Positions 3,250 through 59,179 of a DNA stretch of 64,000 nt are shown here, piece after piece. Position numbers and translations under genes: made by a program. Within the stretch, counting starts at the first letter, position 1; each line of letters opens with the position of its first letter. The notes under the pieces were generated by a model. That model did not search any database and was not told where the DNA came from. It was given only the letters and a program-made list of their open reading frames with translations. This stretch comes from Chiloscyllium plagiosum (lineage: Eukaryota). The stretch lies in contig NC_057752.1 in NCBI RefSeq assembly GCF_004010195.1, positions 10,728,865 through 10,792,864 on the forward strand, given 5' to 3'.

Positions 3250-3388
3250 AAAGAAACCCAAACATATAAATAGAAAGCAGAAATCATCAGCTGTGCTTCG
3301 CCTGGAGGCCCACTGAAGATGTTACCTCGTAGGATGACGAAACGTCTGGAAATGAACCTTCCAGCTCAGCGAGTAAACCTAGATCCAG
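3250..3388 (+). mobile_element. Penelope-like element 3' (pLTR) fragment inserted in the CR1
   Basis: Interrupts CR1 colinearity relative to the paralogous copy near 46990-47078; resembles the PLE end at 34563-34690; contains a hammerhead motif. Confidence 0.75.
3310..3349 (+). ncRNA. Minimal type-I hammerhead ribozyme motif
   Basis: CCA-CUGAAGA-U-[GUUACCU CGU AGGAUGAC]-GAAACGUC^UGG: stem I CCA/UGG, stem II, palindromic ACGU in place of stem III. Confidence 0.7.
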
Positions 3389-6300
3389 ATCCTGTCAATG
3401 TCACGTTGCAACCTACAACAGCCCTCCACACTATCCACAACTTCTCCAACCTTCGTGTCATCGGCAAACTTACTAACCCACCCTTCCACTTCCTCATCCA
3501 AGTCATTTACAAAAACCACAAAGAGCAGAGGTCCCAGAACCGATCCCTGCAGAACACCACTGGTCACCGAGCTTCAGGCTGAATATTTTCCATCTACTAC
3601 CACCCTGTCTTTTGTGGGCCAGCCAATTCTGTATCCAGACAGCCAGATTTCCCTGTATCCCATGCCTCTGTACTTTCTGAATGAGCCTACCATTGGGAAT
3701 CTTATCAAAAACCTTGCTAAAATCCATACCCACCACATCCACCTATTTTCATCAATGGGTTTTGTCACATCCTCAAAGAATTCAATAAATCTTGGCATGG
3801 CCTGTCCCTCACAAAGCTACACTGACTACCTCTAATCAAGGTATGCTTTCCCAAATAATCATAAATCCTGTCTCTTAGAATCCTCTCCAATAATTTGTCC
3901 ACCACCGACGTAAGACTGACTGGTCTGTAATTCCCAGGGTTATCCCTATTCCCTTTCTTGCACAAAGGAATAACATTTGCCACCCTCTAATCATCTGGTA
4001 CTACTCCAGTGGACAGTGTGAATGCAAAGATCATCACCAAAGGCGCAGCAATCTCTTCCCTCACTTCCTGTATGAACCTTGGGTATATCCCGCCAGGCCC
4101 AGGGGATTTATCTGAACTCGTGTTTTTCAAAACTTCCAGCACATCCTCCTTCTTAACATCAACATGCTTGAGCCTATCAGCCTGTTTCACTCTGTCCTCA
4201 CAAACGAAAAGGTCCCTCTCAATAGTGAATACTGAAGTAAAATATTCATTAAATGACCTCCTCGAACTCCAGGCACAAGTCCTCTCCATTATCCCTGATT
4301 GGCCCTACCCTCACTCTGGCCATCCTCTTGTTCCTCACATAGGTGTAGAACACCTGGAAGTTTTCCTTAATCCTACCTGCCAAGGCTTTTTCATGCCCCC
4401 TTCTAGCTCTCCTAAGTCCATTCTTCAGTTCCTCCCTGGCTACCTTGCAATCCTCTAGAGCCCTGTCTGATCCTTGCTTCCTCAACCTCAAGTAAGCTTC
4501 CTGCTTCCTCTTGACGAGATGCTCCACATTTCTTGTCATCCAAGGTTCTTTCAACCTACCATCCCTTCCTTGCCTCAGTGGGACATACCTGTCCAGCACT
4601 ACCAGCAAGTGCTCCCGAAGCAACCTCCACATTTCTGTCGTGCACTTTCCTGAGAATATCTATTCCCAATTTATGTTCCACAGTTCCTTCCCATACGGTT
4701 TGCTCCTATCCCTCTCCATGACTATAGCAAAGGTCAGGGAGTTGTGATCGCTATCAGTGAAACGCTCTCCCACTGAGAGATCTGACACGTGACCTGGTTC
4801 TTTGCCAAGCACCAAATCCAATATGGCCTCCCCTCTAGTCAGCCTATATATTATATAGAATCCATCCTGGACACACCTGACAAAGTCTGCTCCATCCAAA
4901 CTATTTGTACGAAGGAGGTTCCAATCAATATTAGGGAAGTTGAAGTCACCGATGACAACAACCCTGTTACTTCACATGTCCAAACTCTGCCTCCCAATCT
5001 GCTCCTCTGTGTCTCTGCTGCTATTGGCAGATCTATGAAAAACTCCCAATAAAGTGACAGCTTCTTTCCTGTTTCTGACTTCCATCCATAGTGACTCTGT
5101 AGACAAACTCTCCTCGACAACCTCCCTTTCTGCAGCTGTGATACTATCCCTGATTAGCAATGCCACTCCTCCACCTCTTTTCGCCCTCCCTTTTCCTTTT
5201 GAAACATCTAAACCCCAGAACATCCAACAACCATTCCTGCCCCTGTGATATCCAAGTCTCCCTAATGGTCACAACATCATAGCTCCAATTACTGATCCAT
5301 ACTCCAAGTTCATCACCCACATTCCTGACACCTCTTGCGTTAAAATGGACACACTTCAACCCAATACATTGACTGCAACGTTGCCCTATCAACTGTCTAT
5401 CCTCTCAGTCTCTCTGCACGCTGAATCTGCCTGTTCACCAGCTGCCCCATTCTCTGATCTGTAGCTCTAGTTCTCATCCCCCTGCCAAACTAGTTTAAAC
5501 CTTCCCGAAGAGCTCTAGCAAACCTCCCGCCCAAGATATTGGTGTCCCTCCAGTTCAGGTGCAATCCGTCCTCTTTTTACAGGTCCCACCTTCCCCAAAG
5601 GTATCCTAATATCTGAAGCCCTCCCTCCTACACCAGCTCTGCAGCCATGTGTTCAGCTACACTCGCTCTCTGTTCCTGCCTCACTAGCACGTGGCACCGG
5701 TAGCAACCCTGAGATTACTACTCTGCTCGTCCTGCCTTTTAGCTTCTAACCTAACTCCTATATTCACTCTGCAGGTCCTCATGCCTTTTCCTAGCTATGT
5801 CTAGCTGCTCAGCCTTCCCCTTAAGACGACCTAGAGGACGACATTGAGTCGCATCAGTAACTGCAGAGGAGCGAGATAGGAGGGTAAGTGGACTTTGTAA
5901 CTCCTTGGAGTCCAGGACACTTCTCATCTCCAGAACCTAATCCTTGGATGTTTGTGCTCATTCCCTTACTCTCAGCGCCATTTGAAACATGTCTGAAATA
6001 GCAGACTTGACCACTTACAGTGCAGCTGAGTGCATACAGTCCCTATATAGCACTCAATAGCTAGTTTAACATTTCTAGTCATGTTTAATTAATGTCATCA
6101 ACAATTAGGGTTAAAGTCGCATGCTAAAGCAGACCCTCAAAAGCAGTATCTTATTAACACAGGACCTATCTAGTACGTGTTTCTGGAGTTCTTGTGGCAC
6201 AGTGGTAGTGTCTCTACCCCGAGCCAGAAGTCCCATGCTCCAGTCCCACCTGCTCCAGAGGTGTGTTATAATGTGCCTGAATAGGTTCATTAAAAGGATC

Positions 6301-6498
6301 TCTAGTCCCTGTTTCCACCCATGTAGCAAAATAACCTCATTATTAGGACTGCATATTTTCTTTGCTCAAAGCAAAAATGATCAAATTAACTTTAAAAATG
6401 TTATTCACATGTAAAATATCTTCCAATATGCAATGCAACTGGACTATAACTTGTTTTCATTGACACACTTTTCACACAGACAGCAATAAGTTACTTAC

Positions 6499-6558
6499 TT
6501 ATTATCACCGATGAAGTCCAGAATTTCTTGTTCTAATTTTAGCAGCATCATCCTGTCC
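6499..6558 (-). CDS. R3HDM2: R3HDM2 coding exon 6 (60 nt, [19 protein letters not shown]; start of R3H domain)
   Basis: Acceptor tgtatcttctag|, donor AA|GTAAGT, phase 2 to 2. Not in the ORF track. Confidence 0.95.
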
Positions 6559-58620: not shown

Positions 58621-58741
58621 CTCAATGGTAATCCCCAGGGATGTTGGCAATGGGGCATTCAGTGATGGTTAAAATATTATATGACAAAAAGCAATGTTTT
58701 GATTGTCTCTTACTGGAGGTGGGCAATGCCTGGTATTTGTG

Positions 58742-58939
58742 GACAAAGTTAAAAATCACACAACACCAGGTGAGAGTCCAACAGGTTTATTTGGAAGCAC
58801 TAGCTTTCAGAGTGCTGCTCCTTCATCAGGTAATTGTGAAGCAGTGCTCTGAAAGCTAGTGCTTCCAAATAAACCTGCTGGACTATAACCTGGTGTGGTG
58901 TGATTTTTTAACATTGTCCACCCCAGTCCCTCCATATCA
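58742..58939. mobile_element. Miniature fold-back of the same PLE end as 7371-8777
   Basis: ~80-bp inverted arms; minus-strand CUGAUGA…GAAAGCUA^GUG; perfect 11-bp TSD tggtatttgtg (58731-58741 / 58940-58950). Confidence 0.85.
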
Positions 58940-59179
58940 TGGTATTTGTGTGACACTAATGTTACTTGCCAATTTTCAGCCCAAGCCTGAATATTGTCCA
59001 GGTCTTGCTGCACTTTGAAGAGGACTGTTTCAGTATCCGAGGAGTCACCAATGGTGCTGAATATTAGGCAATCATCAAACATCCCCACTTCTGACCTTAC
59101 GATGGAGGGAAGGTCATTGATGAAGGTGCTGAAGTTGATTCAGCCTAGGACATCACCTTCAGGAGGTCTTGCAGTTATA

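What the first reader, a model, noticed from the sequence alone, without database searches (positions are those of the whole stretch)
3250..58950. Window-wide set of miniature hammerhead-ribozyme retroelements from several sequence families
Seen: about 15 CUGANGA-stemII-GAAA-(ACGU/AGCU palindrome)-H motifs, intact or decayed, near 3313, 7481, 8693, 12486, 20660, 23851, 31921, 34625, 35300, 37967, 41152, 41885, 42279, 45699 and 58823. They fall into at least four families with unrelated stem II sequence but a retained core and pairing. Many are only 90-200 bp, non-coding, with 10-15 bp TSDs (12409, 20577, 37964, 41769, 58742), and several single-arm copies stop within a few nt of the CUGANGA box. 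Known: PLEs carry minimal type-I hammerheads that cleave as dimers. Inference: these are either PLE-mobilised non-autonomous ribozyme mini-elements (retrozyme/SINE-like) or stereotyped abortive PLE insertions. Either way the density implies a very large ribozyme census in this genome.
Basis: partly seen in the sequence, partly recalled or inferred. Interest (0 to 1): 0.8.

Follow-up and report, generated by a model that had tools for sequence, protein, structure and literature searches.

The report
Stereotyped abortive Penelope insertions with hammerheads
The short hammerhead-bearing inserts are real and very abundant, but they are end pieces of protein-coding Penelope-like jumping genes rather than a new element class; their fixed ends suggest that copying likely starts at two set points, one on each cut DNA strand, and likely stops where the element's RNA begins.

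Summary
Observation confirmed: all 15 motifs exist (8 of 15 with both core boxes intact) and the five listed TSDs are real. Each of the four main families is the pLTR end of a GIY-YIG-encoding Penelope-like element (A, B Neptune-type, C Poseidon-type, D unplaced). A 1.59-Mb genome sample held 517 arms (about 1.1 million if extrapolated, roughly 0.3-0.4 million with intact core boxes). Truncation is not random: 5' ends pile at an initiator-like site 3-10 nt before CUGANGA in A, B and D, 30 nt upstream of the ribozyme cut site. All 52 TSD-bounded head-to-head pairs of A and B have one arm ending about 33 nt further 3' than the other; junctions differ, so each palindrome is made anew. Family B RNA is polyadenylated upstream of both DNA 3' ends (one sample). 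Best reading: abortive insertions, twin-primed at the two known reverse-transcription start sites, copying only the RNA's first 90-130 nt. Not retrozymes or SINEs; cleavage untested. This scan reported the same elements earlier on other pieces of this genome.

The parts
3249..3388 (+). Family C (Poseidon-type) single arm, C3 at 3313, intact core, 64 nt of pLTR upstream; replaces about 87 nt of the host LINE, no TSD
   Evidence: compared with the related LINE copy at 46930-47090
7371..8779 (.). Family B long head-to-head pair; hammerheads at 7487 (-, intact core) and 8693 (+, decayed); possible 10-bp TSD with 1 mismatch
7444..7449 (-). AATAAA poly(A) signal of family B (+38 to +43 from C3); reads of family B copies carry poly(A) from the positions matching 7432 and 7429
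12409..12611 (.). Family A head-to-head pair, short arm (3' end +89) on - and tailed arm (+126) on +; decayed core; 15-bp TSD with 1 mismatch
20577..20666 (-). Family A single short arm (0 to +90), C3 mutated; 12-bp TSD
23769..23901 (-). Family A single short arm with 44 nt of upstream pLTR, intact core at 23857; no TSD found
31856..31953 (.). Fifth family (E), decayed head-to-head pair of hammerhead-like arms; coding partner not found
34562..35500 (-). Family C long 5'-truncated copy with GIY-YIG region (34854-35165, PF01541 E 3.7e-05); decayed hammerhead at 34634; right end approximate
35227..35310 (-). Family A single short arm, core boxes intact at 35306, inside the family C copy; no TSD found
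37964..38110 (+). Family D single tailed arm starting 3-4 nt before CUGA; 11-bp TSD
41086..42388 (.). Family C head-to-head pair with RT and endonuclease-region remnants; hammerheads at 41158 (-, intact, short end) and 42279 (+, G12 mutated, tailed end); 10-bp TSD
41769..41896 (-). Family A single tailed arm (125 nt), intact core at 41891, inserted into the RT of the family C pair; 15-bp TSD
43536..43763 (.).
45629..45822 (.). Family D head-to-head pair; the CUGAGGA at 45698 is a junction chimera; 16-bp TSD with 2 mismatches
58742..58939 (.). Family B head-to-head pair, short arm (+88, intact core at 58829) and tailed arm (+110); 11-bp TSD

Best explanation
These are the hammerhead-bearing end modules of endonuclease-positive Penelope-like elements, inserted with 9-19-bp target duplications, and they likely arise as abortive insertions in which the element's protein primes reverse transcription at two fixed sites near the 5' end of its RNA and likely runs off the RNA's start. 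Shown: each family is the pLTR of a coding PLE; 3' ends fall in two classes about 33 nt apart (A +90/+125, B +86/+120); 5' ends pile 3-10 nt upstream of CUGANGA; head-to-head pairs always combine one long and one short end. Inferred: the endonuclease nicks both target strands 9-19 bp apart; one nick primes at the outer start and the other at the inner start (twin priming, probably by a protein dimer on one RNA or two sister RNAs); both cDNAs stop at the transcription start (initiator-like site about 31-35 nt behind a TATA-like box); their ends are trimmed and joined head to head, or only one survives (single arm). Longer copies need a template that continues upstream (read-through tandem RNA, or a jump of this 'strong-stop-like' cDNA to the RNA's 3' repeat). 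The ribozyme cut is not what sets the boundary.
For: Coding parents: GIY-YIG regions upstream of long copies of A, B, C, D; PF01541 and RVT_1 hits; CX2-5CxxC linker in A and B; intact 5' ends show pLTR-hammerhead-tail followed by the ORF (A: L167, ATG near +159, and L070; C: L151, ATG at stem II). 5' wall: in A, 95 of 152 arms at risk end between -10 and 0 (8.5% per nt) against 7 of 51 between -16 and -55 (0.4% per nt) and 32 of 234 between +15 and +39 (0.6% per nt); in B, 29 of 62 between -12 and -2; D 28 of 45 at -5..-1. TSD-bounded single arms confirm the wall independently of reference sequences, as do 152 loose read ends at -4. B's peak (-10..-6) lies upstream of its 3-bp stem I and differs from A (Fisher p 0.0005) and D (p 6e-05); initiator-like and TATA-like motifs sit at fitting distances. 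End rule: 38 of 38 A pairs and 14 of 14 B pairs with a TSD have one long and one short end, while single A arms are 19 long and 9 short. In 19 of 49 pairs the short arm reaches 5 nt or more further 5' than the tailed arm, in 16 the reverse, so neither arm is a copy-back of the other. Arms of one pair are more alike (0.918) than random arms (0.823; n 42). Frangieh et al. 2024 (PMC11167929) showed in vitro that a Poseidon protein nicks and extends both strands, starts at two sites bounding the tail, uses uncleaved RNA and is predicted to dimerise. Family B RNA: 1009 and 755 of 3927 laid reads carry poly(T) ends at +58 and +55, with strand bias; 69 of 88 B arms have AATAAA or ATTAAA there, so a polyadenylated B RNA lacks both start sites at its 3' end.
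Against: No RNA 5' end was observed: no pile-up of read starts in either lay. No excess of an untemplated G at the wall (2 of 10 single A arms ending at -4). In A and D the wall coincides with the 5' edge of stem I, so a structural stall fits these two equally well. The TATA-like motif is weak in A (found in 19 of 43 long copies) and its spacing (34-35 nt) is long; A and B differ by about 5 nt in wall position but only about 1 nt in TATA position. Family C has a TATA box but no wall (30 of 36 arms extend beyond -15). The poly(A) signal is conserved only in B; the poly(A) reads come from one sample and may be host transcripts ending in B copies. L070 has upstream pLTR joined to hammerhead, tail and ORF start, which fits read-through templates without any jump. 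TSDs were found for only 55 of 104 pairs and 48 of 300 single arms, so the end rule rests on the better-preserved half. Within-pair similarity may also come from gene conversion.
Confidence: 0.68

Rival explanations
1. The 5' wall is a reverse-transcriptase stall or drop-off at the hammerhead fold (5' edge of stem I, perhaps in the dimer), not the start of the RNA; the rest of the model is unchanged.
For: In A and D the wall (-4) is exactly the edge of the 4-bp stem I; no capped start or extra G was seen; B also has 6 ends at -3, its stem I edge.
Against: B's main peak is at -10..-6, upstream of stem I; family C has an equally good hammerhead and no wall; the monomer folds are no more stable than shuffles (z -1.7 to 0.0 for the five A-D examples), and RT has already unwound stem I's 3' strand before it arrives there (inference).
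Confidence: 0.14
2. Head-to-head pairs arise by self-priming or fold-back of one cDNA (Arkhipova et al. 2013 proposed self-priming, possibly on an antisense template), with the endonuclease resolving the product at the tail boundary.
For: Arms within a pair are more alike than random arms; several junctions are short palindromes or overlaps; the literature ascribes the tail to endonuclease resolution (PMC8557442; PMC3846280).
Against: Copy-back from the tailed arm cannot give a short arm with 5' sequence that the tailed arm lacks, seen in 19 of 49 pairs; copy-back from a short arm cannot give a tail; single arms of both end classes carry TSDs.
Confidence: 0.1
3. The minis are a discrete non-autonomous class (retrozyme- or SINE-like) transcribed from mini copies and mobilised in trans.
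For: Short copies outnumber long ones (A 186 of 237 arms end at or downstream of -15); unit size is narrow; retrozymes derive from PLE pLTRs (bioRxiv 10.64898/2026.07.22.740005). Minis re-copied from host read-through transcripts are not excluded.
Against: No tandem arrays with cores (1 of 517 arms in a repeat of period 40 or more); no shared palindrome junction; minis lack the upstream TATA-like region; the same subfamily sequences occur in long coding copies.
Confidence: 0.06
4. Ordinary randomly 5'-truncated PLE copies.
For: Beyond the wall, upstream lengths fall off smoothly from 31 to 971 nt; family C behaves this way.
Against: Termination per nucleotide is 14- to 23-fold higher at the wall than on either side in A.
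Confidence: 0.02

Closest known systems
[quoted passage not shown]
   Same: Type I core, one unpaired base before stem II, G-C closing pair, palindromic 15.1-16.1 stretch, several consensus families per genome, mostly single motifs 'probably related to truncated PLEs', opposite-strand pairs.
   Different: Extrapolated count here (0.27-0.37 million intact-core motifs) is far above the about 4,000 (coelacanth) and 9,000 (Xenopus) reported there with another descriptor; the passages read do not describe a fixed 5' boundary.
EN+ PLE insertion units with inverted pLTR and one-sided tail (Arkhipova et al. 2013, PMC3846280; Craig et al. 2021, PMC8557442)
   Same: Adjacent inverted 5'-truncated copy, 30-40-bp tail often at one end only, TSD around the whole unit, TATA and Inr-like motifs in the pLTR.
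   Different: Here most units have no coding sequence at all; the one-long-one-short rule is counted (52 of 52) and the junction symmetry argues for twin priming rather than the self-priming proposed in 2013.
Poseidon of Anolis (PAc) in vitro (Frangieh et al. 2024, PMC11167929)
   Same: Two RT start sites bounding the tail, internal to the RNA and downstream of the hammerhead; both strands nicked and extended; cleavage dispensable. Family C has its ATG at the start of stem II as PAc does.
   Different: That paper does not assign the two starts to the two strands of one insertion and does not place the RNA's 5' end or poly(A) site; A and B are Neptune-type with the ATG (A) downstream of the tail.
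Non-LTR retrozymes (Cervera and De la Pena 2020, seen as a listing; Li, Clavereau, Pollet, bioRxiv 10.64898/2026.07.22.740005)
   Same: Non-coding, type I hammerhead, derived from PLE pLTRs, present in cartilaginous fish.
   Different: Defined by head-to-tail arrays with two or more hammerheads; these inserts are single or head to head.
LINE-1 twin priming and retroviral minus-strand strong-stop DNA (both recalled, not from a call)
   Same: Both nicks prime cDNA and give an inversion inside a TSD; priming near the RNA 5' end gives a short cDNA that must jump.
   Different: L1 twin-primed halves do not overlap, whereas these arms duplicate about 90 nt; there is no tRNA primer, RNase H or integrase.

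Membership tests
EN+ Penelope-like element (truncated insertion unit) | RT plus C-terminal GIY-YIG endonuclease upstream of the pLTR in long copies | tested here: met
   for D only a decayed GIY-YIG-like stretch in one copy (L024)
EN+ Penelope-like element (truncated insertion unit) | pLTR formed by partial tandem, with hammerhead, preceding the ORF | tested here: met
   L167, L070, L151; no intact 5' end was fetched for B or D
EN+ Penelope-like element (truncated insertion unit) | Optional 30-40-bp tail and adjacent inverted copy inside one TSD | tested here: met
Neptune clade (families A, B) | CX2-5CxxC motif in the RT-EN linker (Craig et al. 2021) | tested here: met
   seen in L133, L134, L141, L142 (A) and L147 (B); no RT tree was built
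Penelope/Poseidon clade (family C) | No linker zinc finger; RT phylogeny | tested here: inconclusive
   no such motif seen in L150, ATG at stem II as in PAc; no tree
Minimal type I hammerhead | CUGANGA and GAAA boxes, covarying stems I and II, palindromic stem III | tested here: met
   (75% of cells paired, 0 of 500 shuffles; the two B rows were misaligned by one column and relatedness inflates such tests)
Minimal type I hammerhead | Self-cleavage (as dimer or protein-assisted) | not testable with these tools
   reads span the B cut site without a drop, but a cleaved 27-30-nt product would not be captured; 4 of 237 A arms start exactly at the cut site
Non-LTR retrozyme | Head-to-tail arrays of two or more units with full hammerheads | tested here: not met
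   1 of 517 arms in a tandem repeat of period 40 or more, core missing; one partial tandem at L070 contains ORF start
Non-LTR retrozyme | Abundant circular RNA | not testable with these tools
   only a poly(A) single-cell run was available
MITE-like or SINE-like discrete non-autonomous family | Copies share one fixed internal structure and descend from mini master copies | tested here: not met
   75 distinct junction end pairs among 84 pairs; descent from mini masters not tested by phylogeny

The most novel reading that the evidence does not exclude
Neptune-type PLEs replicate with an LTR-like logic without being LTR elements: a TATA/initiator promoter opens the RNA just before the hammerhead, the poly(A) site closes it just after, and a dimeric RT-endonuclease primes one strong-stop cDNA from each target strand at two staggered sites that exist only near the RNA's 5' end; about a million minis in this genome are strong-stop cDNAs whose jump to the 3' repeat failed, leaving hundreds of thousands of hammerhead cores, poly(A) signals and RNA hairpins in host transcripts.
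Probability: 0.3. Interest if true: 0.75.

Novelty: new member of a known kind. Interest (0 to 1): 0.47.

Why it matters
The replication cycle of Penelope-like elements is still open (PMC3846280, PMC11167929). This genome offers a very large natural record of its intermediates, and it yields three sharp rules: a 5' wall just before the hammerhead, one long plus one short end in every inverted pair, and (family B) a poly(A) site upstream of both start sites. Each can be tested directly in the existing in vitro system. The elements themselves are of a described kind. They cover about 3% of the sampled DNA and are invisible to Rfam.

Tried and rejected
Rfam scan of the window (E up to 10): no hammerhead family among 15 matches; the miRNA matches are palindrome artefacts below their gathering scores. 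DNA search of the own genome with a family A copy found nothing because common words are skipped; the census therefore rests on sampled stretches. Sequencing-run search listed no RNA holder (no evidence either way); run X20 laid 0 reads. No read-start pile-up at the wall or the cut site. Cap-copy G at the wall: not seen (2 of 10). Ribozyme cut as 5' boundary: rejected as the main cause; 6 A arms aligned to +28, 2 of them a local 20-bp duplication, 4 real, a weak excess over about 1.1 per position. Splice acceptor as the wall: no shared upstream exon among arms ending at -4. TATA-like box read as a poly(A) signal: poly(A) reads of B lie at +55/+58, none listed upstream. Monomer folding is not better than shuffles for families A-D. 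Contig depth was not usable for the wall (edge effects, subfamily divergence). Several long 'open frames' in the search tables were assembly gaps. Lunse et al. (dimer cleavage) was not held and is known here only through its citation in PMC6765202; one search fetched an unrelated paper.
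Full report
Observation. All 15 motifs are present. Eight keep both core boxes; seven are decayed or chimeric. A descriptor for CUGANGA, a stem of at least 4 bp and GAAA gave 5 hits in the window against 0.28 in shuffles and 99 in 1.21 Mb of sampled genome against 2-8. 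Rfam finds no hammerhead here. Coordinates below are relative to C3, the C of CUGA. The genome (3.56 Gb) looks like a shark's from its repeats; that label is recalled and was not tested.

Census. Profile HMMs of four families found 517 arms (A 264, D 117, B 99, C 37) in 1,586,812 called bases (160 stretches of 10 kb from contigs C1-C44, ten of them beside the window, plus the window); the reversed sequence gave 0. That is 326 arms per Mb and 3.1% of bases, about 1.1 million arms if extrapolated. Of 346 arms that reach the core, 165 have both boxes intact: about 0.37 million genome-wide, or 0.27 million by the strict descriptor. Small contigs were not sampled.

Hammerhead anatomy. The commonest pairs per family are: stem I pair 1 C-G (A, B), A-U (C), U-A (D); pair 2 U-A (A, D), A-U (B), C-G (C); stem II closing pair G-C in A, B and C (G-U commonest in D), next pairs G-C/U-A, G-C/A-U/C-G, C-G/G-C/U-A; stem III palindrome ACGU (A, C, D) or AGCU (B). 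On nine representatives, 75% of cells pair and 18 show two-sided changes, 0 of 500 shuffles as high (the two B rows were one column off, and relatedness inflates this test). This is the min-HHR of Cervera and De la Pena (PMC4209133; passages and sections 5 and 9 read).

What the families are. Long copies share upstream sequence for up to 971 nt (A), 679 (B) and 733 (C) and it encodes a GIY-YIG region; one D copy shows a decayed one. A and B carry the CX2-5CxxC linker of Neptune (definition from PMC8557442, passages); C looks like Poseidon. Protein searches in the genome gave 203,682, 146,007 and 34,785 first-look candidates for C, A and B pieces (not copy numbers). Intact 5' ends show pLTR, hammerhead, tail and then the ORF: L167 (A, ATG near +159; 1 of 30 loci fetched, analysed), L070 (A), L151 (C, ATG at stem II). 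The mini unit is therefore the first 90-130 nt of the autonomous element's transcription unit.

5' ends. Arms were aligned back along long reference copies. In A, 95 of 152 arms at risk end between -10 and 0 (peak -4/-3), against 7 of 51 between -16 and -55 and 32 of 234 between +15 and +39; in B, 29 of 62 end between -12 and -2 (peak -10..-6); D has 28 of 45 at -5..-1; C has no wall (30 of 36 pass -15). TSD-bounded single arms (48 of 300 at score 9 or more, null 1.5%) confirm starts at -7 to +1, and the largest upstream loose end among RNA reads laid on an A copy is at -4 (152 reads). The wall is about 30 nt upstream of the cut site (+28). It lies at a pyrimidine-A step in an initiator-like context, 31-35 nt behind a TATA-like motif found in 19 of 43 (A), 13 of 23 (B) and 6 of 16 (D) long copies. 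Against a promoter reading: no read starts were seen, no extra G, the wall equals the edge of stem I in A and D, and C has a TATA box without a wall. For it: B's wall is upstream of its stem I and differs from A and D.

3' ends and pairs. Single A arms with a TSD end near +90 (9) or +125 (19). Of 104 head-to-head pairs, 55 have a TSD (null 1.2%). All 38 in A and all 14 in B have one long and one short end (p 7e-12 and 1e-04 against one half); the 3 in D agree. Junctions are not shared (75 distinct end pairs among 84), so each palindrome is built at insertion. The short arm reaches at least 5 nt further 5' in 19 pairs, the tailed arm in 16, and 14 are level; this excludes simple copy-back from the tailed arm. 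Arms of a pair are more alike than random arms (0.918 against 0.823).

RNA. One poly(A) single-cell run (X19, about 2% read) was informative. On A, reads lay on both strands and ran into unlike flanks, as passenger transcription would. On B, reads were strand-biased (about 2800 against 540) and 1009 plus 755 of 3927 carried poly(T) ends at +58 and +55, 12-15 nt past the hexamer at +38..+43 and before a GU-rich stretch; 39 arms have AATAAA and 30 ATTAAA, of 88. Several haplotypes contribute. A B RNA ending there lacks both DNA 3' ends (+86, +120), which then exist only in the 5' copy. The reads may be host transcripts that end in B copies; they extend upstream of the wall and say nothing on the start. 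A, C and D have no conserved signal at this place.

Mechanism. Shown: coding parents, two 3' end classes, the wall, the pair rule, the B poly(A) site. From the literature: a Poseidon protein nicks and extends both strands, starts at two sites bounding the tail, uses uncleaved RNA and is predicted to be a dimer (PMC11167929, main text read); PLE pLTRs hold the promoter (PMC2377424, passages; TATA and Inr-like motifs in PMC3846280, passages). Inferred: the two nicks prime at the two starts, both cDNAs run to the RNA's 5' end and are joined or one is lost. Long copies need read-through RNA or a jump; L070 fits read-through plus template switching. I put 0.68 on the overall model, about 0.6 on the transcription start as the wall and about 0.3 on the full strong-stop-and-jump cycle.

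Comparison and novelty. Solo and opposite-strand min-HHRs of truncated PLEs, inverted pLTRs and one-sided tails are described (PMC4209133, PMC3846280, PMC8557442). Retrozymes need tandem arrays (bioRxiv 10.64898/2026.07.22.740005, parts 1-3 of 5 read; supplements closed and may list shark families), which are absent. Reviews PMC6155905 and PMC6765202 were seen as passages. Nine searches, including 'Penelope' with 'strong-stop' and with 'twin priming', listed no paper that states the wall, the pair rule or this poly(A) placement; subscription journals and Repbase were not searchable, so these elements may be catalogued there. Earlier agents of this scan reported the same elements, the wall and the fresh junctions on other pieces of this genome; I had reached those points before looking, and their notes are not independent support. 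The few lines shown do not mention the strict end rule or the poly(A) site. Verdict: a new, extreme member of a known kind, with rules that make the open PLE mechanism testable; interest 0.47.

Noticed in passing
L070:2150-2720: One TSD-bounded family A insertion holds an inverted short arm, a pLTR-hammerhead-tail-ORF-start segment and a second pLTR-hammerhead-tail: a partial tandem with two intact hammerheads 334 nt apart, able in principle to form the dimer.
   Followed up: partly
window 3249-3388: The family C insertion replaced about 87 nt of its host LINE instead of duplicating the target.
   Followed up: yes
window 31856-31953; L186, L192, L099, L204: A fifth, rarer hammerhead-like family with a very short stem II; no coding partner found.
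   Followed up: partly
window 58785-58874, 45645-45736, 12438-12544: The palindromes score weakly as miRNA precursors in Rfam (best 52.8 bits, below gathering). With 104 pairs in 1.59 Mb they could be a large source of hairpin RNA and of false miRNA calls.
   Followed up: no
family A arms, position +28 (L218, L117, L116, L097): Four arms start exactly at the predicted cut site, three of them in pairs; a weak excess that needs genome-wide numbers.
   Followed up: partly
L089:7750-8030: A family A arm and a family D arm lie head to head without a clear common TSD; could be cross-family priming or chance adjacency.
   Followed up: partly
L082:6874 (-), L044:6147 (+), L038:1590 (-): Several 'single' arms carry a short inverted piece of the other end class at their 5' junction, likely an aborted second cDNA.
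   Followed up: partly
window 2838-5600 and 46400-49300; 21490-22500; 59300-60900: Decayed LINE copies (CR1/L2-like by recall) host several of the insertions.
   Followed up: no
window 36626-37114 and 59521-59815: Two copies of a SINE-like repeat resembling the shark HE1/V-SINE (name recalled).
   Followed up: no
window 13484-13696: A 120-bp local tandem duplication with 99% identity.
   Followed up: no
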